DNA from: an uncultured Polyangiales bacterium
GTDB taxonomy: Bacteria; Myxococcota_A; Polyangia; Polyangiales; GCA-016699535
Direction of reading: 5' to 3'
NCBI GenBank assembly: GCA_964640175.1
Contig: CAZXFW010000001.1
Span: 160,460 to 224,459 of the forward strand
DNA: 64,000 bases
Below the pieces are notes generated by a model. The model saw only the letters and a list, made by a program, of their open reading frames with translations, had not been told where the DNA came from and did no database searches. The stretch's first letter is position 1, and each line of letters begins with the position of its first letter. The translations under genes were made by a program, and so were the position numbers. This document shows, piece by piece, positions 9,075 to 27,055 of this stretch.

Positions 9075-9091
9075 CTCCAAGGAAAAACGCC

Positions 9092-10248: not shown

Positions 10249-10268
10249 TGTGGATAGCTTGTGGATCA
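10249..10268. promoter_or_regulatory. two tandem DnaA-box-like 9-mers upstream of dnaA
   Basis: TGTGGATAG (10249-10257) and TGTGGATCA (10260-10268). Each matches 8/9 of the complement of TTATCCACA and they are spaced 11 bp apart. An AT-rich tract lies at about 9950-10100. Confidence 0.55.
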
Positions 10269-10306
10269 ATGGAGGGTGGTGTGCAATTTTTAGGGAGAAA
10301 CTGGCT

Positions 10307-11653: not shown

Positions 11654-11870
11654 ATAGTTTGGTGGATAACCCTGGGGAATACGTGCTCATAACTCTTTTA
11701 TGGATTTCATTCACAACTTACCCCACCTCGAATCCACAAAGGCTTGTTCCTTAATTAACTAAGAAACAAAACTAGTTGCAAACCTTTTTCCCCAATTCAC
11801 AGTTTCTACGACGACTATTGATTTAAATTAAAAGGTATCTGATCTATAGAAGCAAAAGGGATAAGTTCTC
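11654..11870. other. candidate oriC segment (dnaA-dnaN spacer)
   Basis: 217-bp non-coding spacer with GGTGGATAA (11661-11669, 8/9 DnaA box), GAATCCACA (11730-11738, 7/9) and an AT-rich stretch at about 11810-11850 (ATTGATTTAAATTAAAAGGTATCTGATCTATAG). Confidence 0.45.
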
Positions 11871-13013: not shown

Positions 13014-13014
13014 G

Positions 13015-14152: not shown

Positions 14153-15646
14153 GTGAGATGCGTGAAGGCAATTGTAATTGGTTCAGGGTTTGGTGGTCTT
14201 GCGGTAGCCATTCGGCTTGCTCGACGAGGATACGATGTGACCGTCCTGGAACGTTTAGACCAGCCAGGAGGAAGAGCGAGGGTTTTCAAACAAGATGGGT
14301 TTACATTTGATGCAGGCCCAACCGTAATTACAGCACCCTTTCTTTTCGAAGAACTTTGGTCGCTTTGTGGCCTTTGTATGAAAGACGAAATTGATCTGCG
14401 TCCCGTAGATCCATTTTATCGGATACGATTTGATGACGGAGAAGTATTTAATTACACCGGTGATCCGAATGCGATGCATACGGAGATTGCACGTATTAAT
14501 CCTGACGATGTCACAGGGTATGAAGCATTTTTTAAACAGAGTGAGGCGATTTTTCGAGTTGGTTTTCAAGAGCTTGCAGATGTTCCGTTTGATTCGATTC
14601 AAAGTATGCTGCGAATTGTGCCAAAAATGGCACGGCTTAAGAGCTATCGTACCGTCTACAATCTGGTTTCAAGCTATATAAAACATCCGAAGTTGAGACA
14701 GGTTTTTAGTTTTCATCCATTACTTGTTGGTGGAAACCCGTTTTCAACCACATCTATTTATGCACTGATTGCTTTTCTGGAACGAAAATGGGGAGTGCAT
14801 TTTCCCATGGGCGGGACAGGTGTTCTTGTACAGGGGATGGTTCGGCTACTCGAACGCTGTGGGGGTGAGTTGAAGTTGCGAACAAATGTGGAAGAAATTC
14901 TGGTTGAACAAAATCGGGTCAAAGGCGTGAGAATCTCTGGAGGGCAAGAACTAAATGCAGACATTATAGTTTCTAACGCAGATTCTGCATGGACCTACCG
15001 GTATCTGATTCCTCATAAATTCCGAAAGACGTGGACCGATCCTAAGCTTGATCGTGCGCGGTATTCCATGGGACTCTTTGTTTGGTACTTTGGAACATCG
15101 TGTGTCTATCCCGATGTAAAGCACCATACCATTCTTCTGGGACCGCGTTATCGTGAGTTGTTGCGCGACATTTTTGATCGTAGGATTCTTGCAAAAGATT
15201 TTAGCCTGTATTTGCATCGACCTACGGCAACCGATTCTCGTTTAGCCCCATCAGGCAAAGATGCATTTTATGTGCTTTCTCCGGTGCCTCATTTACAAAG
15301 TGGCATCAATTGGAATGAGACAGCCGAATATTATCGACAAGCGATTGCCTCTTATTTGTCGAGTTCGATTCTTCCTAATCTTGAAGCCAATGTTGTCACT
15401 TCAAAGGTGATGACTCCGCAGCATTTCCAAGATGAACTTTTAGCGTTTCGAGGTGCAGCGTTTAGTTTCGAGCCAATCTTCAGTCAAAGTGCTTACTTTC
15501 GTCCGCATAACCAAAGCAAAGATATCAAAGGCTTATATTTTGTCGGGGCAGGCACCCATCCAGGAGCAGGTGTTCCAGGCGTATTGTCGTCTGCACGTGT
15601 CATCGATCGACTATTGTCCACGAAGCCCTGCGGGGCTCAGGGTTAA
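14153..15646 (+). CDS. crtI: phytoene desaturase
   Basis: 497 aa with the N-terminal dinucleotide fold IVIGSGFGGLA, the C-terminal carotenoid-desaturase signature GLYFVGAGTHPGAGVPGV, and an adjacent crtB. Confidence 0.85.
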   Translation: MRCVKAIVIGSGFGGLAVAIRLARRGYDVTVLERLDQPGGRARVFKQDGFTFDAGPTVITAPFLFEELWSLCGLCMKDEIDLRPVDPFYRIRFDDGEVFNYTGDPNAMHTEIARINPDDVTGYEAFFKQSEAIFRVGFQELADVPFDSIQSMLRIVPKMARLKSYRTVYNLVSSYIKHPKLRQVFSFHPLLVGGNPFSTTSIYALIAFLERKWGVHFPMGGTGVLVQGMVRLLERCGGELKLRTNVEEILVEQNRVKGVRISGGQELNADIIVSNADSAWTYRYLIPHKFRKTWTDPKLDRARYSMGLFVWYFGTSCVYPDVKHHTILLGPRYRELLRDIFDRRILAKDFSLYLHRPTATDSRLAPSGKDAFYVLSPVPHLQSGINWNETAEYYRQAIASYLSSSILPNLEANVVTSKVMTPQHFQDELLAFRGAAFSFEPIFSQSAYFRPHNQSKDIKGLYFVGAGTHPGAGVPGVLSSARVIDRLLSTKPCGAQG

Positions 15647-15649
15647 AGC

Positions 15650-16561
15650 ATGTACCCAGAATATGAGTCAGACATACGTGTATGCCAACGCATTCTTGAA
15701 AAAGGTTCTAAGAGTTTTAGTCAAGCGGCAAGGCTTTTGCCTCGTTCCATGCGACAAGCAAGTTCTGCAGTATATGCATTTTGTCGAGTAGCTGACGACG
15801 CTATTGACACACGAGAAACACATACTGCGCTTAAAGATCTGCGCAACATGTTGAACCGTGTCTATTCAGACATACAGCATGATGGTGCTATTGAAAGGGC
15901 ATTGTGTGCTGTCGTAAAGCGTTATCGCATTCCACGCATAGTATTTGATGCATTATTGGAAGGGTTTTCTTGGGACCGTGAAAACCGTCAATATGCGGCG
16001 ATAGATGACTTGGAACATTATTGTGCGCGTGTGGCTTCGACCGTCGGAGTGATGATGACGTTAATTTCTGGGGTGCGTGATCCTTTGGTGCTTGCGAGAG
16101 CTTGTGAGATGGGTCTAGCCATGCAGCTTACTAACATTGCTCGAGATGTGGGAGAAGATGCTCGGCAAGGCAGAATCTATCTGCCACTTGAGTGGCTTCA
16201 AGTACATGGAGTGTCTCCAGAATCTTTGCTGAACAAACCTGTGTACAGTGACGAGCTTGGTTTAGTCGTTAAAAAACTACTTGAACGTGCCCAGCGGTAC
16301 TATGAGTCCGGCTCGTTGGGATTGGCATATTTGCCCAAAGAAAGCCAACCTGCGATGTGGGCTGCTCGATTTATCTATGCAGACATTGGCCGTGTGATTG
16401 CGAATCAAAAGTACAATAGCATTGATTCCCGTGCATACACGAGCTTTCCCCGAAAACTATGGTTGCTCTTGCGGGCCATTTTTGCTTACTCTAGTCAGCG
16501 AAAGCCTTTAACCATTACGACAACCAATTCAGTGCAGTTTTTAGTCCATGCTGTGGAATAA
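15650..16561 (+). CDS. crtB: phytoene synthase
   Basis: 303 aa of the squalene/phytoene synthase family: YAFCRVADDAID and NIARDVGEDARQGRIYLP Asp-rich motifs. Confidence 0.85.
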   Translation: MYPEYESDIRVCQRILEKGSKSFSQAARLLPRSMRQASSAVYAFCRVADDAIDTRETHTALKDLRNMLNRVYSDIQHDGAIERALCAVVKRYRIPRIVFDALLEGFSWDRENRQYAAIDDLEHYCARVASTVGVMMTLISGVRDPLVLARACEMGLAMQLTNIARDVGEDARQGRIYLPLEWLQVHGVSPESLLNKPVYSDELGLVVKKLLERAQRYYESGSLGLAYLPKESQPAMWAARFIYADIGRVIANQKYNSIDSRAYTSFPRKLWLLLRAIFAYSSQRKPLTITTTNSVQFLVHAVE

Positions 16562-17282
16562 CACATTAACTATCAAACAGGATCTCGCTAAACGTTTTGA
16601 TGAAATTGCTCATCGGTATGATCTTTTAGCAGCACTCAATCCTGGATACGCCAAACATTTGCACTGGAGTGCAAAGCGCATGGGATTGTCTAATAAATCA
16701 CGAATTTTAGATGTGTGCTGTGGTACGGGCCTTTCAACACTTGCTTTAAGCCATACATACCCAGACGCGACGATTGATGCTGTGGATATTTCCACAGAGA
16801 TGCTGGAACACGCAAAATCGAAATTTTATCAAGCAAGAGTGAATTTTGTAAAAGGGAACGCCATGTCGCTTCAAGATTCCGGAATACGGGGGCCCTATGA
16901 CGGCATTTTCATGGCATATGGGATACGGAATGTTCCCGATCCTGATTCCTGTTTGGAACACCTGCGTTCCTTACTTATTCCTCGTGGGACGCTATGCTTG
17001 CATGAGTATTCCGTGAGAGATTCGCTACGTAGTAAAACAATATGGAATGCTGTGAATTTGGGGGTGATCTGGCCGTGCGGGCTACTGACATCACCCAAAT
17101 CAGATATTTATCGGTATTTATGGAAAAGCGTCATGGAGTTTGATGGCGTTCGAGAGCTGGAAGGGCGACTAAGGAGCATGGGCTACACAGACGTCCATTC
17201 GAAAACTATGGATGGGTGGCAAAAAGATATCGTGCATTCGTTTTTAGCCACGGCTCCCTGTGAGCAGCACGGTAACGTGTGA
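16548..17282 (+). CDS. class I SAM-dependent methyltransferase (UbiE/COQ5-like)
   Basis: SAM motif I ILDVCCGTGLSTL. Overlaps crtB (14 nt) and the next gene (4 nt), which implies an operon. Confidence 0.75.
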   Translation: MLWNNTLTIKQDLAKRFDEIAHRYDLLAALNPGYAKHLHWSAKRMGLSNKSRILDVCCGTGLSTLALSHTYPDATIDAVDISTEMLEHAKSKFYQARVNFVKGNAMSLQDSGIRGPYDGIFMAYGIRNVPDPDSCLEHLRSLLIPRGTLCLHEYSVRDSLRSKTIWNAVNLGVIWPCGLLTSPKSDIYRYLWKSVMEFDGVRELEGRLRSMGYTDVHSKTMDGWQKDIVHSFLATAPCEQHGNV

Positions 17283-18808
17283 GTGCTTCAACCACAGATG
17301 TCTTAGTGGTAGGCGGAGGCCTTGCTGGAGTAGCTGCTGCAACAGCGATTGCAGAGCAGGGGATTAAAGTCACTTTACTTGAACAGGAAAATCATCTTGG
17401 CGGCAGGCTTGCAGGATGGACAGAGCAGTTGCCTGATGGGACCACACTTCAAATGGAACGTGGGTTTCACGCATTCTTCAGACAGTACTACAACCTCCGT
17501 CAGCTTTTGCGACGCATAGACCCCACTCTCACGAAGCTCAAACCCTTAAAAGACTATCCCATAGTGGGTCCCCATGGATTAAGTCAGTCATTTGCTGGCT
17601 TGCGTACACATGCGCCGATGAACGTGATTGATTTAGTAAGGCAGACGGACACACTCAAGCTAAAGCACCTTCTTAGGATTAATAAGCGTGCAGCATTGGA
17701 AATGTTGGCTTTTGATACGGAACAAAGCTATGCGATGTTTGATCAGCTTTCGGCTAAAGATTACCTGGATTCACTAAAGTTTCCTCAAGAAGCAAGGCAC
17801 ATGCTCTTTGATGTGTTTTCTCATTCTTTTTTCAATCCAGAAGACAACATGTCCGCTGCAGAAATGTTGGCCATGTTTCATTTCTACTTCATGGGCAATC
17901 CTGAAGGCTTGCTGTTTGATGTGATGCGAGAGCCTTTCTCCACAACCATATGGCATCCATTTGAGCAATATCTTGCCAAAACTGGCGTAATATTAATAAA
18001 AAATTGTCAAGCGTTACGTGTTCACCCGCGTCCACACGGTTTTACCATTCAAGCCCGACAAGACACGCAATACGCCGAGTTCCAGACAAAAACATTAATT
18101 CTGGCACTCAATGTACCAGGCATTCAACGTGTTATACGTGACTCACCTGAACTTGGGGATGTGTTGTGGAGAAAAAGCATTGAATCCCTGCGCACAACTG
18201 CTCGGTTTGTGGTGTGGAGATTGTGGTTGGATCGTCCTGTTTGGCCAGATCGTGCGGAATTTGTGGGAACGACTGGAGTGGGGCTTTTAGATAACATCTC
18301 TTTGTATCATCGCATTGAAAAAGAGTCTGCACAGTGGGCTACTCAGACAGGCGGAAGCGTGGTGGAGCTTCATGCGTATGCGGTGGCGCCTGAGATAGAG
18401 GAGGCAGCGATTAAGGAGAACCTCTTGCAGGGATTAAATGCGCTCTATCCAGAAACTTCACAAGCGGGTATCGTGCACCATCGCTTTATGATTCATCAGG
18501 ACTGTCCGGCGTTTGCTCCAGGAAGTTACACCTTGCGGCCAGGTGTTATCAGTAGTCATCCTCAGTTAATGATAGCCGGTGATTTTGTGCGCCTTCCCTT
18601 TCCGTCAGCGTTGATGGAGCGTGCTGTGACGAGTGGATTTCTTGCTGCGAATCATCTGTTGCAACAACAGGGGTTACCCACGGTGCCCATTCATCGGATT
18701 CCTTCAAAGGGCCTGGCTTCATGGATACACAAAAAGCCTGATTTTAAGGATGCATACCGCCATGTGCAAAACACAGTTCTAGAAAAAACTAACTTCTTAA
18801 GGTCTTAA
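17279..18808 (+). CDS. FAD-dependent oxidoreductase, amine-oxidase/carotenoid-desaturase superfamily
   Basis: N-terminal VLVVGGGLAGVAAA...LLEQENHLGGR dinucleotide fold, 509 aa, within the crt operon. The specific reaction cannot be assigned. Confidence 0.7.
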   Translation: MSASTTDVLVVGGGLAGVAAATAIAEQGIKVTLLEQENHLGGRLAGWTEQLPDGTTLQMERGFHAFFRQYYNLRQLLRRIDPTLTKLKPLKDYPIVGPHGLSQSFAGLRTHAPMNVIDLVRQTDTLKLKHLLRINKRAALEMLAFDTEQSYAMFDQLSAKDYLDSLKFPQEARHMLFDVFSHSFFNPEDNMSAAEMLAMFHFYFMGNPEGLLFDVMREPFSTTIWHPFEQYLAKTGVILIKNCQALRVHPRPHGFTIQARQDTQYAEFQTKTLILALNVPGIQRVIRDSPELGDVLWRKSIESLRTTARFVVWRLWLDRPVWPDRAEFVGTTGVGLLDNISLYHRIEKESAQWATQTGGSVVELHAYAVAPEIEEAAIKENLLQGLNALYPETSQAGIVHHRFMIHQDCPAFAPGSYTLRPGVISSHPQLMIAGDFVRLPFPSALMERAVTSGFLAANHLLQQQGLPTVPIHRIPSKGLASWIHKKPDFKDAYRHVQNTVLEKTNFLRS

Positions 18809-18812
18809 CACC

Positions 18813-20144
18813 ATGTCAGGTATTTCACTTCGTACCGCGATGTTTCTTGTCGTTGCCAGTATGGTTGGCACGGGGATTTTTACCACGACAGGACTTCTGG
18901 CAAGGGATTTGAGTTCTGGATGGTTAATTTTGCTTACTTGGATTCTTGGGGGTGGCCTTGCGTTATCGGGGGCGCTTGCTTACGCGGAATTGTGCTCTCG
19001 CTATCCACGTAGTGGAGGTGAGTATTGGCTACTTGGACAGGTGTATCATCCCGCATTGGGATTCATCGCAGGAATCGTTTCAATTTTTGTAGGATTTGCG
19101 GCTACGGTAGCGGTGTCTGCAGCTGCATTTGCACAGTACATGGGCCGTATATTTCCAGGAATTCCTCAGACGGTTATTTCCATAGGACTGGTTTTGGTGC
19201 TTTCTGTGGTGCACACGCTACGCACTCAAAGTGCAGCAGCATTTCAAGACATTACAACCATCGGGCGTTATGCACTCACTGTACTTGTGGCACTAATTAC
19301 CATTATTGTGGGGTGGGGTAACGTACCTGATCCTTGGATCGCAAGTACATCAGAGAAGATTTTTTCAGCACCCTCTTTTGCAGTGGGACTTGTCTGGGTG
19401 GTGTACGCTTACAGTGGGTGGAACGCAGCATCGTATATTGTGGATGATGTCGATAACCCACAATGGACAGTACCAAGGGCGTTGTTATATGGCGCAGCGA
19501 TTGTAACGGGGCTGTATGTTTTAGTGAATGTGGCGTACCTCGTGTCAGTACCACGTGCGGAGCTGGCCGGAGTCGTGGAAGTTGCCTATGTTGTGGGAGA
19601 CAAGGTAGGCGGGCAGATTGCAGCAAAACTTATTTCAGTGGTGATCGCCTTTGGATTGATTTCGACAGCAGGCGCATACACCATGATAGGTGCCCGCATA
19701 TACCAAGTCATCGCGGATGATTATCCTAAACTCCACTGGATGGCTCCCAATGCCAGCGCAACGCGTGTATCAAGACGCGCAGTATGGATACAAGCATTTA
19801 TAGTGTCCTCCTTGCTGTTGTCTGCAACCTTTGAAGGTCTTTTGACCTATGTAGGGTTCATGCTCTCTTTGTTTTCTGCACTTACTGTGGGCGGTGTTTT
19901 CGTGGCTCGTTGGCGAAACCCTTCCGTTAAGCCATCCTACACAACGTGGGGCTATCCATTCACGCCAGCGATGTTCCTAATATTCATGACATGGATCGTG
20001 GTATATGCAGCCATCGAGCGTCCCATGGTTGCAGTTGCAGGAGTTGCCATTTTTGTGGGTGGTGGAATTTTATATCGTTTTGTAGCTACTCCCACTGAGG
20101 CTCATGCCCTGAATGAGGCACATGGTAAGGAAGTAACTAACTAG
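18813..20144 (+). CDS. APC-superfamily amino acid/polyamine permease
   Basis: 443 aa with about 12 TM segments and an N-terminal VVASMVGTGIFTTTG motif typical of APC transporters. Confidence 0.8.
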   Translation: MSGISLRTAMFLVVASMVGTGIFTTTGLLARDLSSGWLILLTWILGGGLALSGALAYAELCSRYPRSGGEYWLLGQVYHPALGFIAGIVSIFVGFAATVAVSAAAFAQYMGRIFPGIPQTVISIGLVLVLSVVHTLRTQSAAAFQDITTIGRYALTVLVALITIIVGWGNVPDPWIASTSEKIFSAPSFAVGLVWVVYAYSGWNAASYIVDDVDNPQWTVPRALLYGAAIVTGLYVLVNVAYLVSVPRAELAGVVEVAYVVGDKVGGQIAAKLISVVIAFGLISTAGAYTMIGARIYQVIADDYPKLHWMAPNASATRVSRRAVWIQAFIVSSLLLSATFEGLLTYVGFMLSLFSALTVGGVFVARWRNPSVKPSYTTWGYPFTPAMFLIFMTWIVVYAAIERPMVAVAGVAIFVGGGILYRFVATPTEAHALNEAHGKEVTN

Positions 20145-21078
20145 ATTGTCGTAAACGATATTGACGTTCTGCATAGGCAGCATCATCAATCCATAGTCGT
20201 TTAGCAGAGCGAGCGATCCAAGGTCGCATAAGTTTAGCCGCTTTCGTGGCTAGCTTGAATCCAAATCGTTCTGAAGTGGCCAACGTGGCTTCTATAATGG
20301 CTGTTCGTCCTGCATCAATAGGTGTGGCATGGGTTTCAACCACAGAGCCGGTGCCTTCTCCATCGACAATTGTCATGACGATGGTACGAGGTTCAGGTGA
20401 GTGAAAACGTGCGTCAACCTCGACACTGATTGGGCCAAGTACACGGTATGCGACTCGTACGGTGATGGAATCTTGAGTTTTTGCAATTACGTTGAGTCGG
20501 GAAAAAGAATGGGGATGAAAATACACGCCGTGCCACGGATCCAGTCGATTGGCGATAACATCTTGGGGTTCACAAGAGGCTTCAAGGCGAATCACAGCAT
20601 CCACAAACTGAGAGGGTCGTTGTGTGAGGACAGGCTGAGATGTTAATGGTTCGGTAGTAGTGTCATCAAGTCGTACCCATAACAACACACCATCATCAAA
20701 GCTTAAAAACGGTTTCCATGAACCGTGCCCGTTAGGTCCAAGTCCTAACCCATGCCATGGGCAGCGCAATTGATTGTCAATCACCTTTCCGCACGAAAGA
20801 GAAGCGCCCATGTGAGGACAAGCATCAGGAGCTACCCAGAATCGATTGTCTGCGCGCCATACAACAAGATCACGGCCACATAAGCGATACAGTTTAGGCA
20901 GATCGCCAATAGCACGACAGCCGTCTACCACAAACCATCCGCCAGCTGGGCGCTCTATCGCACGATGCAGCGCTTGTTCGATATGCTTAGGGTTGGCTTG
21001 AGCCCAATCGGGGCGAGATTCGATGGAGGAATCTGTCGTCGATTTCGGTATTCGACCAATCGTCCATACGCGGTTCAT
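20137..21078 (-). CDS. Rieske [2Fe-2S] non-haem-iron oxygenase-like protein
   Basis: Rieske motif CPHMG...CPWHG, plus a downstream D-x2-H-x4-H motif (DPWHGVYFH) resembling the mononuclear-iron site of PAO/Tic55-type oxygenases. Confidence 0.75.
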   Translation of the reverse strand: MNRVWTIGRIPKSTTDSSIESRPDWAQANPKHIEQALHRAIERPAGGWFVVDGCRAIGDLPKLYRLCGRDLVVWRADNRFWVAPDACPHMGASLSCGKVIDNQLRCPWHGLGLGPNGHGSWKPFLSFDDGVLLWVRLDDTTTEPLTSQPVLTQRPSQFVDAVIRLEASCEPQDVIANRLDPWHGVYFHPHSFSRLNVIAKTQDSITVRVAYRVLGPISVEVDARFHSPEPRTIVMTIVDGEGTGSVVETHATPIDAGRTAIIEATLATSERFGFKLATKAAKLMRPWIARSAKRLWIDDAAYAERQYRLRQSS

Positions 21079-22829
21079 TAACGTTGTAAAGCGCTATGTG
21101 CGATCTTGCGCACTGCAGTGTTATCGTCTTCAGTTGCAGCGAGTAATACACTTTCAAAGCGCTTACGATCTAACTTCGCCATGGCATCAACCGCATAAAA
21201 CCGTACGACTGCATGAGGCGAACGAAAGTCAGCTTCCAGTTGTTGAGCGATATCGTTTCGTATTTGATCGTTTTTATGTTTGCGAAATCGCTCTACAAGG
21301 TCGTCATAGAACTCAGCACTGGGCAGCGTTTCGTTTTCTTTTTTTGATTTTCCTTTTTTGGCTGGGCCAGAACGAGCAGTGGCTTTTGCCTTTTCGCCTC
21401 CTTTACCTGTAGGTGTTACCGTGTGCTGTTCTTCGGAACCATGCATAGGTAAAGGTGGTGGAGATGAAATCGGACGGCGTGCAGGGGGAGGAAACCCTGT
21501 AGGCGAATGGTACGATCCTACAATAGGCATGGCAGGTTGACTATGGCTTGGTTGAGCCGGAGGAAATCCTGATGGCGAAGGCGTAGTGGTAGCGGTTGTT
21601 GGGCGGCGTGGATTGGGAGCGCCGGGCAGTGTGTTAATCATTTCTGGATTACGTACCCGTCCTCTTTCTGCGACTCGTCGTCTAGCGCCGCGGCCAAACA
21701 AGTCGAAAGATTCGATTTCTCCCAATTCCAACACAGGAAGGCTTTCATGAAGCTTGTCACTAAGGATCTTTCCTTCATCCCTTGCGCGATTTACCACATC
21801 TTGAATATGAGCGGGTAAAGCACGCGATACCGCAATCAATCTTAATGTTGAAGGTACCGAAGGATTGCTCAGTTGATAAATACCTACATCAATGGCAGCA
21901 CCGCGAGTTAAGTGTTTTAGTTCTTCGTTGAGCTGGTTGAACATAGCCATCGGTGTTTCTGCCAACACGGCCTCAGGTGTTTCAACGATTAAAGCCAAAT
22001 GGGATAGATGGGCTGGGTCAAATCCTGCTGGCATCAAATGACTTGCACTAAGGCTTTGTCGAACTAAATCAACAATATGAGCTGTATCCAGATGGGCTAC
22101 TTTGCTTTGAACAGTTTCGTAGTGAATGATGCCGCCTGCTAATAGCACTTTTCGAAAGTCTTCACCGTCGAATGCTCGAATCGCGTGTGTATCACTTCGT
22201 TCATTAAGTCGATTGAGTCTATCCAAGGGGTCGATGATGTGTTGATTGACCAACGTAAAATAATTTCGCGCGGCAGCGCTCTGATTGTGTAAAGCCAGCT
22301 GTGCGTTATCAATTAAGATCCAACCATCTAGAGCGCTTTCTAAGAGTTCATTGATAGCTCTTACAGCATTAACTTTGGCAATGCCGCTTTCACTATCCAT
22401 GGGAAGCGTCACTAAACACACAATGGGGATTGTAATTTCGCTAATGATTTTAATTAGCTCACGTACGGAAGAGCCTGTTCCACCACCAAGGCCTGCGGTT
22501 ACAACAATCACATCAGCGTCGGCGGTATGCTGACGCGCATGTTTGAGAATAAGCTCTGCGTTTTCGGCGATGCAACTACGACCATAGTCGGGATCGGCAC
22601 CGGCGCCATCGTAGCCGGCCATACCAATGTACACTCGTTCGTGATCTTCTAGGCCAGGTGATCCCCATTCGGTACCAAGCGCCGTTAAGTCAGTGCGGGC
22701 AGTATTGAAGGCTAACGCAGGGTAACCACGACGTTTTAGCTCAGCTGCTAGGTTGCCGCCGGCCTGGCCCAGACCAATCACTCGAATATCCAACGCTCGT
22801 CCTTGTAGTGCCACAGTGTTCTCCACCAT
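21078..22829 (-). CDS. divergent tubulin/FtsZ-superfamily GTPase with Pro-rich linker and HEAT-like C-terminus
   Basis: IRVIGLGQAGGN (FtsZ G1-like), tubulin signature AGLGGGTGSS, and LIDNAQL (FtsZ NDxL-like). These are followed by an approximately 90-aa P/S/T-rich region, a K-rich patch and a terminal HEAT-like repeat (DDNTAVRKIAHSAL). Confidence 0.65.
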   Translation of the reverse strand: MVENTVALQGRALDIRVIGLGQAGGNLAAELKRRGYPALAFNTARTDLTALGTEWGSPGLEDHERVYIGMAGYDGAGADPDYGRSCIAENAELILKHARQHTADADVIVVTAGLGGGTGSSVRELIKIISEITIPIVCLVTLPMDSESGIAKVNAVRAINELLESALDGWILIDNAQLALHNQSAAARNYFTLVNQHIIDPLDRLNRLNERSDTHAIRAFDGEDFRKVLLAGGIIHYETVQSKVAHLDTAHIVDLVRQSLSASHLMPAGFDPAHLSHLALIVETPEAVLAETPMAMFNQLNEELKHLTRGAAIDVGIYQLSNPSVPSTLRLIAVSRALPAHIQDVVNRARDEGKILSDKLHESLPVLELGEIESFDLFGRGARRRVAERGRVRNPEMINTLPGAPNPRRPTTATTTPSPSGFPPAQPSHSQPAMPIVGSYHSPTGFPPPARRPISSPPPLPMHGSEEQHTVTPTGKGGEKAKATARSGPAKKGKSKKENETLPSAEFYDDLVERFRKHKNDQIRNDIAQQLEADFRSPHAVVRFYAVDAMAKLDRKRFESVLLAATEDDNTAVRKIAHSALQR

Positions 22830-22889
22830 TTCCCGGGTTAATGTTTTTTACAAGCATAGCGCGAAGAGGCGTGTTATACACGGTAAATA

Positions 22890-24413
22890 TTGACCATTTT
22901 ATCCGTATGTCTTCGGGGTGCGAATTCACGTTGCGGTTTTGCACGAGGAGTTGAGCGCTGTGTTTTGGGGGGTTGTCTAGGCCTTATGCTCCTCACTGCG
23001 AACGGCTGTGGTGATGATAAAGAAAAGCATTGCCGTTATCCGCTTGATCCGGCCCACCAGGAAGGGGAAACCGTAGAGTGCGTCGATCTTAAAGTGCCAA
23101 ATCGGTGGGATAACCCGAATGGGTCTACCATGAACCTTCATCTTGCCGTATTTCGTGCCGATCCTGAAGCTCCAACGCCGCGCGCATGGTTATGGCTATT
23201 AGGTGGGCCAGGACAATCCTGGGCCACGAGTACTGAGATATTTTCGCCCGAGGTTATCCAAAACATTGGTCAAGATTTGATTATCCTGGATCAACGTGGA
23301 GTTGGGTTTAACTCTCCAAAACTGGATTGTTCTGACACAAAAGTTCCAGACCAGAGTTCCATCCAAACGTACATTGAAAAGTGTGTCGAAGACTTGCGTC
23401 GCGAGGGTGTGGTTATTGAGGGATATACCACATGGGAGATGGCCCGCGATATCGAAGCTGCACGCACACAGTTTGGTTATGAATCGTTGGATTTGCTCGG
23501 AGTCTCTTACGGCACGCGTTTGGCTTTGGAGTATTTGCGACTGTTTCCCAAAACCAGTCACACCGTGGCGCTGGATTCAGTATGGCCACCACAGTATCGC
23601 TTGTTTGAAACTTCCCTCGTTGCACGTAATGAAGCTGTAGATGAGCTTTTTGCGGCATGTGATGGAGATGACCAATGTCAAGAGGATTTTCCTGATCTCG
23701 AAACGCAATTTGAATCCGTGTATTCAGAACTTGAAGCAAAGCCGTTGGGCATGGACGATGATTCCATGGATGGTGATTCCTTCGTCGGGTTACTCGTTTC
23801 AACGATTTTATCGTTTTATCCTCCTGTGGCACCGGCTGTGATTTACGAGATGGCTGAAGCAATCGAAAAGAGCCAAGAAGAAGTTCCCTCCGACATTAAA
23901 TTATTGTTTGAGAAATTTAATGTGAGTCTGGATGAATCCGGAGGAGACGAATTATTGATCTCTGTCACGTGTGCAGAAAATCAAGATATATCGCTTGAAG
24001 AGATCCAAGCCAAACGAGACGTCGTTAGGCCTTCATTGCACGGTCTTGCAGGAGTAATTGAAGATTTACTTTATCCTGCGTGTCTAGGGTGGCCTTCGGT
24101 TCCGGTGCCCGACAATGCGTTTGATCCAGTGGTTAATTCAGATGTTCCGGTGTTGATGATGAGTGGAAGGCTAGATCCTCGAACCCCTGTGAGTTGGGCT
24201 CTTGAAAATCGCCAATATTTGGCCAAGTACAATCATGTAATTTTAGAGCATCAGGGACACAGTGTATCTACGAAAGCCGATGGGTGCTTGTTTCGGTATG
24301 CGTTGCAGTTTATGAAGGCAGGTGTTCCTCCGGAGGATTACGAGTGTGATGCTTCGCTTGACCCAGAGTTTTTTGGCTCGGTAAGCGAAGGGCTTGCAGC
24401 GTTAGGGAATTAA
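22890..24413 (+). CDS. secreted alpha/beta-hydrolase (tripeptidyl-aminopeptidase-like) lipoprotein
   Basis: Lipobox LLTANGC, GGPG oxyanion region (LLGGPGQS), nucleophile elbow GVSYGT, and a C-terminal H in EHQGHS. Confidence 0.7.
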   Translation: MTILSVCLRGANSRCGFARGVERCVLGGCLGLMLLTANGCGDDKEKHCRYPLDPAHQEGETVECVDLKVPNRWDNPNGSTMNLHLAVFRADPEAPTPRAWLWLLGGPGQSWATSTEIFSPEVIQNIGQDLIILDQRGVGFNSPKLDCSDTKVPDQSSIQTYIEKCVEDLRREGVVIEGYTTWEMARDIEAARTQFGYESLDLLGVSYGTRLALEYLRLFPKTSHTVALDSVWPPQYRLFETSLVARNEAVDELFAACDGDDQCQEDFPDLETQFESVYSELEAKPLGMDDDSMDGDSFVGLLVSTILSFYPPVAPAVIYEMAEAIEKSQEEVPSDIKLLFEKFNVSLDESGGDELLISVTCAENQDISLEEIQAKRDVVRPSLHGLAGVIEDLLYPACLGWPSVPVPDNAFDPVVNSDVPVLMMSGRLDPRTPVSWALENRQYLAKYNHVILEHQGHSVSTKADGCLFRYALQFMKAGVPPEDYECDASLDPEFFGSVSEGLAALGN

Positions 24414-25582
24414 TGGAGTAAGCGCATGCTTTTGATGGTTTGCATGGCAAAAGGAAGCATGGGCAGGGCTTTCATGATCTTGGATGCGTCTATGATAGAT
24501 CCATGATCTGTCAAAAACCGTACGAGCGTATCTGTTGAAACACCACAAAATAACTTCATGAAAATCTCAGGGCCTTGAGCAGGATGTTCTTTGAGGTAGT
24601 TTAAAAACACCCGGTCTAAAAACCGATTCAAAGGTCTACGTATCGTAGGGACACGGTAGATTTTTTCGAAAAATGGTTGTTGAGCCAGCTGATGGCTAAA
24701 CTCTTGAATGGCTAAAAACGCATAGCCTGTGGAAGGTTTTGCGAGGCCACCTCGGATTCCAATCGGAATCACACGTGCCGTTGCATGAGGGGCCAGCTGC
24801 TCGGTCGTCATGGGAATTTTTCCGTGTTCGTCCCAAATCACATCCCAGTGGGTTATCTCATAGTGAGTACAAAGATACCTATCAATGGAAGTAAGATAAC
24901 TTTCGTGCGGTAAGGTTGCTTCACTCATGTACGTATCTTCGACAAGCGCATGGTGCGGATCGAATGGCAACAGGTACATGAAATGGATGCCATGACTTTG
25001 ATCGACGCGAAAGTCCATGAGTGTGGCTGCGCTGGGATCGAAAACAGGTTTTTCACTACGAATGTATTGGCCATAAAAATGTTGATACAGTCTGATTTCT
25101 CCAGGAGGCAAACTGCCAAGTTCAGGGGGTCGGCTGTCGAATACATACAAAGCGCGGTAGCGTTGATTGGATGTGTGAAGGGTGACGCAGGCTTCGTGTT
25201 CCTGCAGAGAGAGTAGAGTTTCCCCAAGCTTTATCGTTACGCGTGGATCGCGGCTGAGCTGCTCCAAGGCAGAACGGTAAAACATGCCAGAATCGACATA
25301 ATTATAGTCATAAACATGACTCATATGTCGTTTTTCATACCCATCAATAGACACTGCAGTCCACTTGTTCCAGCGGTGTGTCACTGCGTTTTCAAAGGGA
25401 TGGGTGGCCATGTTCCAATAACACCAGCTTCGATCTCTGACATAGGCTGTGCGGGGTTCCAGGATGATCATGCGGTGCATGGGCAATGTGCGTTGACGCA
25501 ACAAATGGACTGCTAGACTCAGTCCTGCACAACCACCGCCTACTATTGCAATATCGACGTCTTCATACGAAGCCGTATGCAC
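24410..25582 (-). CDS. crtY: lycopene cyclase family protein
   Basis: 390 aa. N-terminal DIAIVGGGCAGLSLA, then RSWCYW, FMYLLP...LVEDTY and GGLAKPSTGYAF blocks paralleling CrtY. Confidence 0.8.
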   Translation of the reverse strand: MHTASYEDVDIAIVGGGCAGLSLAVHLLRQRTLPMHRMIILEPRTAYVRDRSWCYWNMATHPFENAVTHRWNKWTAVSIDGYEKRHMSHVYDYNYVDSGMFYRSALEQLSRDPRVTIKLGETLLSLQEHEACVTLHTSNQRYRALYVFDSRPPELGSLPPGEIRLYQHFYGQYIRSEKPVFDPSAATLMDFRVDQSHGIHFMYLLPFDPHHALVEDTYMSEATLPHESYLTSIDRYLCTHYEITHWDVIWDEHGKIPMTTEQLAPHATARVIPIGIRGGLAKPSTGYAFLAIQEFSHQLAQQPFFEKIYRVPTIRRPLNRFLDRVFLNYLKEHPAQGPEIFMKLFCGVSTDTLVRFLTDHGSIIDASKIMKALPMLPFAMQTIKSMRLLH

Positions 25583-25587
25583 GAGTG

Positions 25588-26898
25588 TTAATGCTTTCCT
25601 GAATGTACCAGCTTCATTAACGCAGCGATGGTTTGTGTAACATCGCTTTGCTCGTGAGAGTCCTGTCGCAAAAAAGCTTCAATGGCCTCCATACGATGGA
25701 TAGCATCGTCTAACATTAAATTGTGACCAGGCTTATAGGCGCCTAACACAACCATGTCGCGATGAGTTTCATAGGTAGCAATAATTTCTCGCAACTGTTG
25801 TGCTGCGTTACGATGCTCAACTGTCACGAGACGATCCATCACACGTGACAAGCTGTGTAACACGTCAATTGCAGGATAACGTCCGCGCATGCCTAGTTGT
25901 CTGTCTAAGACAATATGACCATCTAGAATGGCGCGTACCTCATCTGCAATAGGTTCATCCATGTCACCACCTTCTACAAGGACGGTGTAGAACGCTGTAA
26001 TTGAACCGTGTTCTGCATTTCCAGTGCGTTCCAATAACGCAGGTAGTGCAGCAAATACACTGGGCGGATAGCCTCGCCTGGTAGGCGGTTCTCCTGCAGC
26101 TAGACCAACTTCACGGGCTGCGCGAGCAAAACGCGTCACGCTATCCATGAGTAATGTAACCCGGTTTCCCTGCTCTCGAAACCACTCGGCGATGGACGTA
26201 GCAACATAGGCACTTTTAAAACGTGTTAATGCTGGTGCATCGCTACTCGCACACACAACAACACTGCGTTGCTGGCCTTGAGTGCCAAGAGTATCTTCAA
26301 TGAATTCGCGAATTTCACGGCCTCGCTCGCCTACAAGGCAAACCACACTGATGTCAGTTTCAGCTTGCCGTGCAATTTGTCCTAACAAACTGCTTTTGCC
26401 AGCACCGCTGCCTGCGAACACACCAATACGCTGACCGTGCCCAATGCTAAGTAAAGTGTCGATGCAACGAATACCCACAGAAAGCATGGTGTCAATGCGT
26501 TTGCGTCGTAACGCATTGGGAGGAGAACGCATGACATCCCAGCTTTCTCCTTGAATAGGGCGTTTGTCATCGATTGGCTGGCCTAACCCATCCAATACGC
26601 GACCTAAAAGCCTGGGGCCACAAGTAATGCGTAAGGGCTGACCCGTACTTCGTACAATATCGCCTGGTCCTACCCCTAATGTGGAGCCAAGAGGCATGAG
26701 TGTGGCACGCTCTTCCGTAAATGCCACGACCTCACATAGTAACGGTTGATCATCTTCACGCAACACCTCCACGCTATCGCCCAAACGTACGCCAGGAATG
26801 GTGGCACAAAGAGCTGGTCCAGCAGTGCTTTGTATTCTTCCCTGCACATGCAGCCCCTCGTGAGCTTCAAGCTTTTTTCGATAACGACTCAAATCCAT
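25588..26898 (-). CDS. FliI/YscN-family (type III secretion/flagellar) ATPase
   Basis: Walker A GSGAGKSSLLG, Walker B TLLMDSVTRFA, and the F1-beta-like RGYPPSVF motif. ATG 26898 (MDLSRYRKK...) is preferred over 26952. Confidence 0.85.
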   Translation of the reverse strand: MDLSRYRKKLEAHEGLHVQGRIQSTAGPALCATIPGVRLGDSVEVLREDDQPLLCEVVAFTEERATLMPLGSTLGVGPGDIVRSTGQPLRITCGPRLLGRVLDGLGQPIDDKRPIQGESWDVMRSPPNALRRKRIDTMLSVGIRCIDTLLSIGHGQRIGVFAGSGAGKSSLLGQIARQAETDISVVCLVGERGREIREFIEDTLGTQGQQRSVVVCASSDAPALTRFKSAYVATSIAEWFREQGNRVTLLMDSVTRFARAAREVGLAAGEPPTRRGYPPSVFAALPALLERTGNAEHGSITAFYTVLVEGGDMDEPIADEVRAILDGHIVLDRQLGMRGRYPAIDVLHSLSRVMDRLVTVEHRNAAQQLREIIATYETHRDMVVLGAYKPGHNLMLDDAIHRMEAIEAFLRQDSHEQSDVTQTIAALMKLVHSGKH

Positions 26899-27055
26899 CG
26901 CATGGAAGAATACCAGTAAGATAATTAAAAGACACCACTGATACCCGTGCAATGATTCTAAAAAGCAGCACTGGTAATTAGCAAATCGACTTTACCAAAT
27001 TCGTCAAGAGTGTATTTGACGGCATTCTCACATGCTGCATACCTTTGACCTTCAC

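What the first reader, a model, noticed from the sequence alone, without database searches (positions are those of the whole stretch)
20137..22829. Non-canonical tubulin/FtsZ-like GTPase translationally coupled to a Rieske oxygenase
The 583-aa ORF has the FtsZ/tubulin nucleotide-binding motifs (IGLGQAGGN, GGGTGSS, IDNAQL). It is not in a dcw context. It continues into an approximately 90-aa Pro/Ser/Thr-rich linker, a Lys-rich patch and a HEAT-like terminal repeat. Its stop overlaps the Rieske start by one base (TAATG at 21076-21080).

This domain architecture and the partnership with a redox enzyme do not match FtsZ, BtubA/B, TubZ or, as far as I recall, the FtsZl families. It could be a scaffold or cytoskeletal element for a membrane or pigment-associated process.
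Basis: partly seen in the sequence, partly recalled or inferred. Interest (0 to 1): 0.6.

Follow-up and report, generated by a model that had tools for sequence, protein, structure and literature searches.

The report
Myxobacterial TubZ-like GTPase with HEAT tail
The gene encodes a real but uncharacterised tubulin/FtsZ-type filament protein, of a family found across uncultured myxobacteria; its overlap with a Rieske oxygenase gene occurs only in a few close relatives and does not point to a shared function.

Summary
ORFs 21078-22829(-) and 20137-21078(-), the GTP-binding motifs and the TAATG stop/start overlap are all present.

The 583-aa protein (more likely 578 aa, from GTG 22814) is not FtsZ: it scores 75.7 bits against TIGR00065, whose cutoff is 295. 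It is not FtsZl1 either. Its core is closest to plasmid TubZ/RepX and archaeal CetZ by profile, BLASTP and predicted fold.

It belongs to a large family seen only in Myxococcota MAGs, with more than 500 hits. The family's fixed architecture is:
- a TubZ-like core with acidic T7 residues;
- a conserved LELGEIE..LF motif;
- a 47-320 aa disordered linker;
- an ~85-aa HEAT-like domain at the extreme C-terminus.

No TubR gene, centromere repeats or shared operon partner were found in 77 loci.

The Rieske gene is a genuine alpha3-type Rieske non-haem-iron oxygenase. Elsewhere its family sits with a lycopene cyclase, a methyltransferase and an FAD oxidoreductase, without the GTPase. The overlap with the GTPase gene occurs only in relatives of at least 69% identity.

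Best reading: a GTP-driven filament with a built-in adaptor, placed beside a carotenoid gene by a local rearrangement near oriC. I rate it a new variant of a known kind, of moderate interest.

The parts
21078..22829 (-). Whole ORF of the TubZ/CetZ-like tubulin-superfamily GTPase (583 aa from ATG 22829; probably 578 aa from GTG 22814).
   Evidence: ORF list. PF00091 at 67 bits. More than 500 homologues, nearly all from Myxococcota MAGs. Public gene call of 578 aa. SD-like GGTGGAG lies before GTG 22814.
22293..22787 (-). N-terminal GTP-binding domain (res 15-179), with the T1 loop GLGQAGGN, T3 DGAGADP, T4 GLGGGTGS, T5 TLPxxxESG and T6 IDN.
   Evidence: Pfam Tubulin hit on res 15-179. These columns are invariant in 34 family members. 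pLDDT is above 90.
21732..22271 (-). H7 helix, T7-like loop (I217..D221-G-E-D224-F-R226), TubZ-like C-terminal (activation) domain and long terminal helix (res 340-366).
   Evidence: The profile aligns through this region to RepX/TubZ 4ei7, with FDGEDF opposite FDASEF. Relatives pass PF22453 TubZ-like_C at 27-38 bits against a cutoff of 26. The AF2 model is confident to res 366. Foldseek's top hit is 4ei7.
21690..21740 (-). Conserved short motif LPVLELGEIESFDLFGR (res 364-380) directly after the terminal helix. Family consensus: LP.L[ED]LG[ED]I..[ED]LF[RK], followed by basic residues.
   Evidence: L367, L369 and G370 are invariant. The motif is found in all 18 core-clade members examined, in a few divergent members and in the HEAT-less relative P0293. 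Model confidence is low here.
21333..21689 (-). Disordered Pro/Ser/Thr/Ala/Gly-rich linker (res 381-499), ending in the Lys-rich patch AKKGKSKK.
   Evidence: pLDDT below 50 for res 367-499. Composition and linker lengths of 47-320 aa across the family. No column conservation.
21081..21332 (-). C-terminal HEAT-like helical repeat domain (res 500-583), the signature of the family.
   Evidence: pLDDT 93-98, five helices. The family profile matches alphaRep/HEAT designs. Pfam HEAT_2 is sub-threshold at 20.2 bits. A C-terminal HMM finds this domain at the extreme C-terminus of every clade member, including those with 30-37% core identity, and in no TubZ, CetZ or FtsZ reference.
21076..21080 (-). 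TAATG: one-base overlap of the GTPase stop and the Rieske start.
   Evidence: Sequence. The same one-base overlap is seen in L001, L083-85 and L095.
20137..21078 (-). Rieske [2Fe-2S] plus DUF5914 protein: an alpha3-type Rieske non-haem-iron oxygenase of the carotenoid gene set.
   Evidence: PF00355 at 47 bits and PF19299 at 244 bits. Invariant C87-P-H89...C106-P-W-H109, N177-R-L-D-P-W-H183...H188 and D299. AF2 pLDDT 90. Foldseek top hits are GxtA/SxtT, KshA and dicamba monooxygenase. Neighbours in other phyla are a lycopene cyclase, methyltransferase and FAD oxidoreductase.
22830..22889 (.). 60-bp intergenic spacer between the GTPase gene and the divergent alpha/beta-hydrolase gene. There is no room for a TubR-type gene and no iterons.
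   Evidence: ORF coordinates. No repeat arrays. Plasmid tubZ/repX genes all have a 90-120 aa gene directly upstream. A promoter-like site at 22924-22896(-) is not above chance.
22890..24413 (+). Divergently transcribed secreted-type alpha/beta hydrolase (TAP-like). It is the only neighbour that stays with the GTPase gene down to 61% identity.
   Evidence: Pfam Abhydrolase_1 and Abhydrolase_4. Adjacent in the window, L001 and L002 only.
14153..18808 (+). Carotenoid genes crtI, crtB, a UbiE-like methyltransferase and an HpnE-like FAD oxidoreductase. These are the usual partners of the Rieske gene.
   Evidence: NCBIfam crtI_fam at 614 bits; CrtB; Ubie_methyltran; Amino_oxidase. The same set flanks the Rieske gene in L086-L088.
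24410..25582 (-). Lycopene cyclase. It lies directly upstream of the Rieske gene in genomes that lack the hydrolase+GTPase pair at this site.
   Evidence: PF05834 at 202 bits. In L086 the cyclase and Rieske genes are 40 bp apart; L087 and L088 are similar.

Best explanation
The ORF encodes a member of an uncharacterised family of chromosomal tubulin-superfamily GTPases. So far the family is seen only in uncultured Myxococcota (Polyangiales, Sandaracinaceae and relatives).

The globular part is a TubZ/CetZ-type two-domain core. All GTP-binding loops and two acidic T7 residues (D221, D224) are conserved. I therefore infer that it assembles head-to-tail into filaments, with GTP hydrolysis activated by the next subunit, as in TubZ, CetZ and FtsZ.

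After the long terminal helix come three further elements:
- a conserved acidic-hydrophobic-basic peptide (LELGEIE..LF-R);
- a disordered linker of very variable length;
- a folded ~85-aa HEAT-like domain at the extreme C-terminus.

The layout mirrors FtsZ (core, variable linker, partner-binding end) and TubZ (a tail that binds the TubR adaptor). I therefore infer that the HEAT domain is a built-in adaptor that tethers the filament to a partner, cargo or surface. The peptide would serve either as a subunit-to-subunit tail contact, as in TubZ, or as a second docking site.

The protein is probably not the division FtsZ, and it is not a TubZRC plasmid-partition module.

The Rieske gene that overlaps its stop codon is a carotenoid-cluster oxygenase. 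In one shallow lineage a rearrangement in the dnaA-dnaN-recF region placed the hydrolase+GTPase pair and the Rieske gene side by side. The two are probably co-transcribed there, but nothing indicates that they work together.

Shown: family membership, architecture, motif conservation, fold, lack of conserved partners, and the carotenoid context of the Rieske gene. Inferred: polymerisation, GTPase activation, the adaptor role of the HEAT domain, and co-transcription.
For: Identity of the core:
- PF00091 at 67 bits.
- The family profile's best PDB match is RepX/TubZ 4ei7, at 94.5 bits over profile positions 7-340. CetZ scores 62-71 bits and FtsZ 66 bits or less.
- BLASTP to RepX gives 28% identity over 248 aa, E 6e-16, running through the T7 loop. 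E. coli FtsZ gives E 0.02 over the N-terminal domain only.
- The AF2 model has pLDDT above 90 for res 8-366. Foldseek's top hits are TubZ 4ei7 (TM 0.78), CetZ 3zid/4b46 and TubZ 2xka.
- Relatives pass Pfam TubZ-like_C.

Catalytic and GTP-binding motifs are invariant in 34 members.

Family:
- 534 hits among the 8000 candidates scored, E down to 1e-277.
- 133 genome loci, 80 listed, of which about 75 are family members in Myxococcota-type MAGs (L076 and L080-L082 are remote outgroups).
- 85 representatives at 50% clustering with E<=1e-30.
- The clade has 80% NJ bootstrap support.

Architecture:
- The C-terminal domain is found at the extreme C-terminus in every clade member, down to 30% core identity, and nowhere else among the references.
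- The linker ranges from 47 to 320 aa.
- The peptide motif is conserved.

No partner:
- No neighbour family occurs in more than 17 of 77 loci.
- Several unrelated syntenic blocks surround the gene.

Rieske gene:
- It is adjacent only in the window, L001, L083-85 and L095.
- In L086 the same dnaA-dnaN-recF-crtI-crtB-MT-FADox / Rieske-cyclase-FliI-DnaJ-RluA synteny exists without the GTPase.
- In L002 the same site holds the hydrolase+GTPase pair without any crt genes.
- L087 (Gemmatimonadota) and L088 also link the Rieske gene to the cyclase, methyltransferase and FAD oxidoreductase.
Against: - No experiment exists for any member. Polymerisation and GTPase activity are inferred from motif conservation only.
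- The position equivalent to FtsZ N207 in the T7 loop is Ala/Ser.
- The query itself does not reach Pfam TubZ-like_C or HEAT_2 cutoffs.
- Placement relative to TubZ versus CetZ is unresolved: 47% NJ bootstrap, a small reference set and a distance method only.
- I could not check whether the source genome also has a canonical ftsZ.
- The one-base overlap with the Rieske gene is kept in three different downstream contexts within the subclade (window/L001 versus L095). That is slightly more than a single accident would predict.
- The peptide motif also occurs in one relative without the HEAT domain (P0293), so a motif-to-HEAT interaction is not implied.
Confidence: 0.6

Rival explanations
1. The GTPase and the Rieske oxygenase form a functional pair. 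The filament would scaffold or localise a carotenoid-modifying enzyme.
For: - The one-base stop/start overlap implies co-transcription and possibly translational coupling.
- The overlap is preserved in the window, L001, L083-85 and L095, although the gene downstream of the Rieske gene differs: a permease/crt genes in one case and a TonB receptor in the other.
- Carotenoid genes lie on both sides.
Against: - The pairing is confined to relatives of at least 69% identity.
- It is absent at 61% identity (L002) and in all 80 genome loci (L003-L082).
- The Rieske family has 4931 hits across several phyla. In L086-L088 it sits with a cyclase, methyltransferase and FAD oxidoreductase, with no tubulin-like gene nearby.
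- L086 has the same chromosomal synteny with the cyclase directly upstream of the Rieske gene.
Confidence: 0.06
2. It is a divergent FtsZ paralogue that takes part in cell division, either as a second Z-ring component or as the only FtsZ of these organisms.
For: - JGI annotates many members as 'cell division GTPase FtsZ'.
- It hits TIGR00065 at E 4e-21.
- The core-linker-terminal module layout parallels FtsZ.
Against: - TIGR00065 scores 75.7 bits against a cutoff of 295.
- No FtsZ_C domain is reported.
- There is no FtsA/ZipA-type C-terminal peptide at the end; a folded HEAT-like domain is there instead.
- No dcw genes were found in the window ORFs scanned or in the neighbourhoods of 77 loci.
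- Sequence and fold are closer to TubZ and CetZ.
- From general knowledge, characterised Myxococcota such as Myxococcus xanthus have a canonical FtsZ.
Confidence: 0.1
3. It is the motor of a TubZRC-like (type III) DNA-segregation system, acting on the chromosome origin or on an integrated element.
For: - The closest characterised relative is plasmid TubZ/RepX.
- In the window, L001 and L002 the gene lies about 6-11 kb from dnaA-dnaN-recF.
- The linker is basic in this subclade.
Against: - There is no TubR-size gene upstream: 60 bp to a divergent hydrolase gene. All four plasmid references have such a gene.
- No iteron or centromere-like repeats are present.
- No recF was found within 8 kb in the other 80 loci.
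- There are no plasmid matches closer than remote Bacillus-type TubZ/RepX at 23-29% identity (two short Haloarcula hits aside) and no phage matches at all.
- The neighbours are housekeeping genes.
Confidence: 0.1
4. It is a non-polymerising GTPase or pseudo-cytoskeletal regulator that only keeps the tubulin fold.
For: - No experimental data exist.
- The FtsZ N207-equivalent residue is not conserved.
- Makarova and Koonin raised the same possibility for FtsZl1, which lacks T6-H7 (PMC2875224).
Against: - Unlike FtsZl1, this family keeps T1-T7, helix H7 and the complete C-terminal domain.
- The two acidic T7 residues that act across the subunit interface are invariant. That is hard to explain without longitudinal contacts.
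Confidence: 0.1

Closest known systems
TubZ / RepX (type III plasmid and phage partition GTPases of Bacillus and Clostridium; PDB 4ei7, 2xka)
   Same: - Best sequence-profile, BLASTP and fold match.
- Two-domain core with a TubZ-like C-terminal domain and a long terminal helix.
- The T7 loop reads FD..[DE]F.
- A flexible tail follows the helix.
   Different: - Only about 25-29% identity.
- Chromosomal, in Myxococcota.
- No upstream tubR gene and no tubC repeats.
- Carries a long disordered linker and a terminal HEAT-like domain that no TubZ reference has.
CetZ (archaeal tubulin-superfamily cell-shape proteins; PDB 4b45, 4b46, 3zid)
   Same: - Second-best profile and fold matches.
- Chromosomal and not linked to division genes.
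- JGI names one member 'tubulin-like protein CetZ'.
- In the NJ tree it groups with CetZ+TubZ against FtsZ.
   Different: - Bacterial, not archaeal.
- The branching order with CetZ is unresolved (47% bootstrap).
- CetZ has no linker plus HEAT module.
- The 2023 survey of the superfamily reports bacterial CetZ-like groups only in Chloroflexota and Firmicutes (PMC9871819).
FtsZ
   Same: - Same superfamily and the same GTP-binding loops.
- The same overall logic of core, disordered linker of very variable length, and a conserved C-terminal interaction module.
   Different: - TIGR00065 is far below its cutoff; no FtsZ_C domain; no dcw context.
- The C-terminal module is an ~85-aa folded HEAT-like domain rather than a ~10-aa peptide.
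FtsZl1 / FtsZl2 (Makarova and Koonin 2010, PMC2875224)
   Same: Divergent, non-division FtsZ-like proteins with family-specific C-terminal regions.
   Different: - FtsZl1 corresponds to Pfam Tubulin_2, has no recognisable T6-H7, carries a coiled coil, and sits in operons with vWA, GTPase and OmpA genes.
- This protein scores 15.9 bits against a cutoff of 27 on Tubulin_2, keeps T6-T7 and has none of those neighbours.
- FtsZl2 is proteobacterial with a ~300-aa alpha/beta C-terminal region. It was not compared directly.
alpha3-type Rieske non-haem-iron monooxygenases (GxtA/SxtT, KshA, dicamba monooxygenase), for the downstream gene
   Same: - Same fold (Foldseek E about 1e-13, TM about 0.6).
- Rieske CxH...CxxH and DxxHxxxxH motifs.
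   Different: - 16-19% identity.
- The catalytic domain is Pfam DUF5914.
- The substrate is unknown.
- The gene context is carotenoid biosynthesis.

Membership tests
Tubulin/FtsZ superfamily | GTPase domain matching PF00091 above the gathering score, with the GGGTG[ST] signature. | tested here: met
   67 bits against a cutoff of 33, res 15-179. G115-G-G-T-G-S120 is invariant in the family.
Tubulin/FtsZ superfamily | T7 loop with acidic residues that complete the active site of the neighbouring subunit. | tested here: met
   D221 and D224 (FDGEDF) are invariant. They align to FDASEF of RepX. Activity itself cannot be tested with these tools.
Canonical FtsZ | Reaches the TIGR00065 equivalog cutoff. 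| tested here: not met
   75.7 bits against a cutoff of 295.2.
Canonical FtsZ | FtsZ_C domain (PF12327) and a short conserved C-terminal peptide. | tested here: not met
   PF12327 is not reported at E<=0.01. The C-terminus is a folded helical domain.
Canonical FtsZ | Location in or near the dcw/ftsQAZ cluster. | tested here: not met
   The neighbours are a hydrolase, a Rieske gene, crt genes and dnaA-dnaN-recF. No dcw genes were found in the window ORFs scanned or in 77 loci.
TubZ (type III partition, TubZRC) | TubZ-type two-domain fold with a long C-terminal helix. | tested here: met
   Foldseek's top hit is 4ei7 (TM 0.78). The profile aligns over both domains.
TubZ (type III partition, TubZRC) | Pfam TubZ-like_C (PF22453) above the gathering score. 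| tested here: inconclusive
   It is not reported for the query at E<=0.01. Relatives pass: P0005 at 30.7, P0010 at 38.4 and P0036 at 31.9 bits, against a cutoff of 26.
TubZ (type III partition, TubZRC) | An upstream tubR adaptor gene and tubC centromere repeats. | tested here: not met
   60 bp separate the gene from a divergent hydrolase gene, and there are no repeat arrays. Plasmid references all carry a 90-120 aa upstream gene.
TubZ (type III partition, TubZRC) | Carried on a plasmid or phage. | tested here: not met
   It lies about 9.4 kb from dnaA on a chromosome-like contig. Contigs of relatives reach 4-11 Mb. Only remote plasmid hits (mostly 23-29% identity) and no phage hits were found.
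CetZ | Falls inside the archaeal CetZ clade. | tested here: inconclusive
   In the NJ tree the family+TubZ+CetZ group separates from FtsZ in 100% of replicates, but the internal order has 47% support and only two archaeal references were available.
FtsZl1 | Pfam Tubulin_2 (PF13809) above the gathering score; coiled coil; vWA/GTPase/OmpA operon. | tested here: not met
   15.9 bits against a cutoff of 27. The model shows no coiled coil. The neighbours are unrelated.
FtsZl2 | Similarity to PFL_1302-type proteins with a ~300-aa alpha/beta C-terminal region; Proteobacteria only. | not tested
The description is taken from PMC2875224. The architecture here differs: a TubZ-like C-domain, a linker and a HEAT-like domain.
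Bacterial/eukaryotic tubulin (BtubA/B) | Tubulin_C domain and closest similarity to tubulins. | tested here: not met
   No Tubulin_C hit. No tubulin appears among the 60 best PDB sequence hits or the 50 best fold hits.
HEAT repeat | Pfam HEAT/HEAT_2 above the gathering score; helical hairpin repeats. | tested here: inconclusive
   HEAT_2 scores 20.2 bits against a cutoff of 27.7, and relatives reach at most 25.2 bits. However, the family profile matches alphaRep HEAT designs repeat by repeat, and the model shows five confident helices.
Rieske non-haem-iron oxygenase (downstream gene) | Rieske CxH...CxxH cluster ligands, a mononuclear-iron DxxHxxxxH plus Asp, and the oxygenase alpha-subunit fold. 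| tested here: met
   PF00355 at 47 bits. The motifs are invariant in 24 homologues. Foldseek matches GxtA, KshA and DMO.

The most novel reading that the evidence does not exclude
This is an undescribed bacterial tubulin-superfamily cytoskeleton specific to Myxococcota. It would consist of chromosomal TubZ/CetZ-like cytomotive filaments that carry their own adaptor (a terminal HEAT domain on an FtsZ-like disordered tether) and so need no TubR-type partner. Such filaments could act in cell morphogenesis or in positioning an intracellular cargo. The family would be one branch of a wider, modular set of TubZ-like cores fused to different C-terminal modules (NTF2-like Cds6_C, ParA/MinD ATPase).
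Probability: 0.4. Interest if true: 0.65.

Novelty: new variant of a known kind. Interest (0 to 1): 0.42.

Why it matters
Bacterial tubulin-superfamily filaments with a known role are few: FtsZ, plasmid and phage TubZ/PhuZ, and BtubAB. The CetZ-type cell-shape function is known only from archaea.

This family is large, well conserved, chromosomal and lineage-wide in Myxococcota. Its core is TubZ/CetZ-like, and it adds an FtsZ-style tether ending in a folded HEAT domain. That makes it a candidate for a further bacterial cytoskeletal system in a phylum known for complex cell biology. It also gives a concrete set of constructs to test.

The finding also corrects a tempting over-reading. The overlap with a Rieske oxygenase gene results from a local gene rearrangement next to the replication origin, and the comparative data give no sign of a shared function.

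Tried and rejected
- Conserved operon partner: tblastn of all window neighbours against 82 loci, then de novo clustering of flanking ORFs. No neighbour family occurs in more than 17 of 77 loci. The commonest are Ser/Thr kinases and PilZ-type proteins, which are abundant in Myxococcota.
- TubR and centromere search: no small upstream gene and no iterons.
- Plasmid or phage origin: only remote Bacillus-type TubZ hits and no phage hits.
- oriC link: DnaA-box-like sites are enriched in the window as a whole but are not clustered. recF/dnaN lie near the gene only in the window's subclade.
- Promoter and terminator scan: nothing above the shuffled expectation.
- Literature: searches for DUF5914, TubZ+myxobacteria, Myxococcota+tubulin-like, TubZ-like and CrtU+Rieske found no description of either family.
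- Names of remote relatives: none available.

Full report
**Observation.** The window has a 583-aa ORF at 21078..22829(-) and a 313-aa ORF at 20137..21078(-). On the minus strand the junction reads caacgtTAATGaacc, so the TAA stop and the ATG start share one base. The quoted motifs are present. The N-terminal 165 residues match Pfam Tubulin (PF00091) at 67 bits against a cutoff of 33. The downstream protein matches Rieske (47 bits) and DUF5914 (244 bits).
- The disordered stretch is about 120-133 aa rather than about 90 aa.
- The Lys-rich patch is shared only by the nearest relatives.
- The HEAT call is sub-threshold in Pfam (20.2 against 27.7 bits) but is supported by other evidence.
- The true start is probably GTG 22814, giving a 578-aa product as in public gene calls, with GGTGGAG upstream.

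**What the GTPase is not.** It is not a canonical FtsZ. TIGR00065 scores 75.7 bits against a cutoff of 295, no FtsZ_C domain is reported, and there is no dcw context. It is not FtsZl1. Pfam Tubulin_2 scores 15.9 bits against 27. Unlike FtsZl1 as described by Makarova and Koonin (PMC2875224), it keeps T6, H7, T7 and a full C-terminal domain.

**What the GTPase is closest to.** Several lines of evidence point to TubZ/RepX and then to CetZ:
- A profile of 34 family members finds RepX/TubZ (4ei7) as the best solved relative, at 94.5 bits over both domains. CetZ follows at 62-71 bits and FtsZ at 66 bits or less.
- BLASTP gives 28% identity over 248 aa to Bacillus RepX (E 6e-16), running through the T7 loop. 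E. coli FtsZ gives only E 0.02.
- The AlphaFold model is confident for residues 8-366, disordered for 367-499 and confident again for 500-583.
- Foldseek ranks TubZ 4ei7 first (TM 0.78), then CetZ, TubZ-Bt and FtsZ.
- Relatives pass Pfam TubZ-like_C.

**The family.** The homologue search returned 534 hits among the 8000 candidates scored, with E values down to 1e-277. Where named, they come from Myxococcota MAGs and are labelled hypothetical, 'FtsZ' or 'CetZ'. A genome-collection scan found 133 loci. About 75 of the 80 listed are family members in MAGs of Polyangiales, Sandaracinaceae, Polyangiaceae and similar groups. An exhaustive phmmer search against 1.84 billion cluster representatives found 85 representatives at E<=1e-30. 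Invariant columns cover T1 (GLGQxGxN), T3 (DGAG), T4 (GxGGGTGS), T5 (TxP...ES), T6 (DN) and the T7-like D221-G-E-D224. After the terminal helix comes the conserved peptide LP.L[ED]LG[ED]I..[ED]LF[RK]. Next is a linker of 47-320 aa with no column conservation. Last is an ~85-aa domain that an HMM detects at the extreme C-terminus of every clade member, even at 30-37% core identity. The same HMM finds it in no TubZ, CetZ, FtsZ or core-only relative. In an NJ tree (368 columns, 100 replicates) the core clade has 80% support. The group family+TubZ+CetZ separates from FtsZ in all replicates, but its internal order is unresolved. I found no paper describing this family. The 2023 superfamily survey lists bacterial CetZ-like groups only in Chloroflexota and Firmicutes (PMC9871819).

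**Neighbourhood.** There is no TubR-size gene upstream: 60 bp separate the gene from a divergent alpha/beta-hydrolase gene. There are no iterons. All four plasmid tubZ/repX references have a 90-120 aa gene directly upstream. Across 77 loci no neighbour family is shared by more than 17, and several unrelated syntenic blocks are seen. In most loci the gene is separated from its neighbours by a gap or a strand change (crude gene calls). It therefore appears to be usually a stand-alone gene.

**The Rieske gene.** It is a genuine alpha3-type Rieske non-haem-iron oxygenase. CPH...CPWH, NRLDPWH....H and D299 are invariant in 24 homologues. The model has pLDDT 90. Its best fold matches are GxtA/SxtT, KshA and dicamba monooxygenase. 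Its family has 4931 hits in several phyla, and JGI labels many of them 'isorenieratene synthase'.

- In a Sandaracinaceae MAG (L086) the chromosome reads dnaA-dnaN-recF-crtI-crtB-MT-FADox on one strand. The Rieske gene, preceded by the lycopene cyclase 40 bp upstream, then FliI-like ATPase, DnaJ and RluA complete the region. This is the window's synteny without the GTPase, the hydrolase and the permease.
- A Gemmatimonadota MAG (L087) and another genome (L088) also link the Rieske gene to the cyclase, methyltransferase and FAD oxidoreductase.
- Conversely, the 61%-identical GTPase in a complete 4.0-Mb genome (L002) sits at the same site, between the FliI-like ATPase and recF-dnaN-dnaA. It has the hydrolase beside it but no crt genes and no Rieske gene.
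- The overlap with the Rieske gene is seen only in the window, L001 (69%), L083-85 (identical Rieske protein) and L095 (73%). In L095 a TonB-dependent receptor follows the Rieske gene instead of the permease and crt genes.
- It is absent from all 80 genome loci (L003-L082).

The pairing is therefore a shallow, lineage-specific juxtaposition in a rearrangement-prone stretch next to the replication origin. Co-transcription there is likely. A functional partnership has no comparative support, although the overlap persisting in two downstream contexts keeps a small probability alive.

**Mechanism (inferred).** A complete tubulin-type nucleotide pocket plus invariant acidic T7 residues argues for head-to-tail assembly, with hydrolysis activated across the subunit interface, as in TubZ, CetZ and FtsZ. 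The layout of core, variable disordered tether and conserved terminal module is that of FtsZ. In FtsZ the terminal peptide recruits membrane anchors and regulators, and in TubZ the tail binds TubR on DNA. Here the terminal module is a folded HEAT-like domain, a typical protein-binding surface. I propose that it is a built-in adaptor linking the filament to an unknown partner or cargo. The conserved peptive after the terminal helix may contact the next subunit, as the TubZ tail does, or it may be a second docking site. One relative without the HEAT domain also has this peptide, so the two elements need not interact.

**Wider context seen in passing.** More remote relatives (28-37% identity) carry other C-terminal modules. 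These include an NTF2-like Cds6_C domain and a ParA/MinD-type ATPase, and some relatives have no C-terminal module at all. TubZ-like cores with exchangeable adaptors may therefore be a broader theme in uncultured bacteria.

**Verdict.** It is partly wrong: the core is TubZ/CetZ-like, and the redox partnership is not a family trait. The protein is a new variant of a known kind, namely an uncharacterised Myxococcota family within the tubulin superfamily. Interest is moderate. It would rise if filaments and a HEAT-domain partner were demonstrated.

Noticed in passing
window 10250-14151: dnaA (10250-11653), dnaN (11871-13013) and recF (12970-14151) lie just upstream of the carotenoid genes, and the cumulative GC skew reaches its minimum at about 10-12 kb. 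The window therefore probably spans the chromosomal replication origin. DnaA-box-like 9-mers are enriched in the window (24 against 12.8 expected) but are not tightly clustered.
   Followed up: partly
window 14153-18808, 20137-21078, 24410-25582; L086, L087, L088: A UbiE-like methyltransferase, an HpnE-like FAD oxidoreductase and the Rieske/DUF5914 oxygenase travel together with a lycopene cyclase in Myxococcota, Gemmatimonadota and other genomes. JGI labels the Rieske protein 'isorenieratene synthase', but DUF5914 appears in no searchable paper. This looks like an uncharacterised carotenoid-modifying module.
   Followed up: partly
window 25588-26952 (-); L001, L002, L086: A FliI/YscN-family type III secretion or flagellar export ATPase (TIGR01026 at 553 bits) stands alone next to the lycopene cyclase. 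Its synteny with DnaJ and an RluA-type pseudouridine synthase is conserved in three other Myxococcota genomes. No other secretion or flagellar genes were seen beside it.
   Followed up: no
P0306, P0311, P0337, P0330 (not in the window): Remote relatives of the GTPase core (25-32% identity) carry other modules. Two have a C-terminal NTF2-like Cds6_C domain, one is fused to a ParA/MinD-type P-loop ATPase, and one has a 150-aa N-terminal extension. All come from unnamed metagenomic contigs.
   Followed up: partly
window 22814-22829: The 583-aa ATG start is probably not the one used. GTG at 22814 has a GGTGGAG Shine-Dalgarno-like sequence upstream, matches the N-termini of relatives (M-x-x-x-G-R-A-L-D-I) and matches the 578-aa public gene call.
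   Followed up: partly
L095 673-5561; L002 10001-13994: In the 73%-identical relative the order is GTPase, Rieske, TonB-dependent receptor, 361-aa protein. In the 61% relative it is GTPase, TonB-dependent receptor, 371-aa protein. The Rieske gene therefore looks inserted between the GTPase gene and the receptor gene in one lineage. The window's lineage instead has the permease and crt genes downstream.
   Followed up: partly
window 8016-9931: An agmatine-deiminase-type gene (PAD_porph, 369 bits) is followed by a carbon-nitrogen hydrolase gene just upstream of dnaA. The same CN_hydrolase lies next to dnaA in L002. This is likely an agmatine-to-putrescine pair.
   Followed up: no
L003-L075: PilZ-domain-like proteins (two different clusters, 11 and 10 loci) and Ser/Thr kinases (17 loci) recur within a few kb of the GTPase gene in different subclades. 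Both families are very abundant in Myxococcota, so this may be chance.
   Followed up: no
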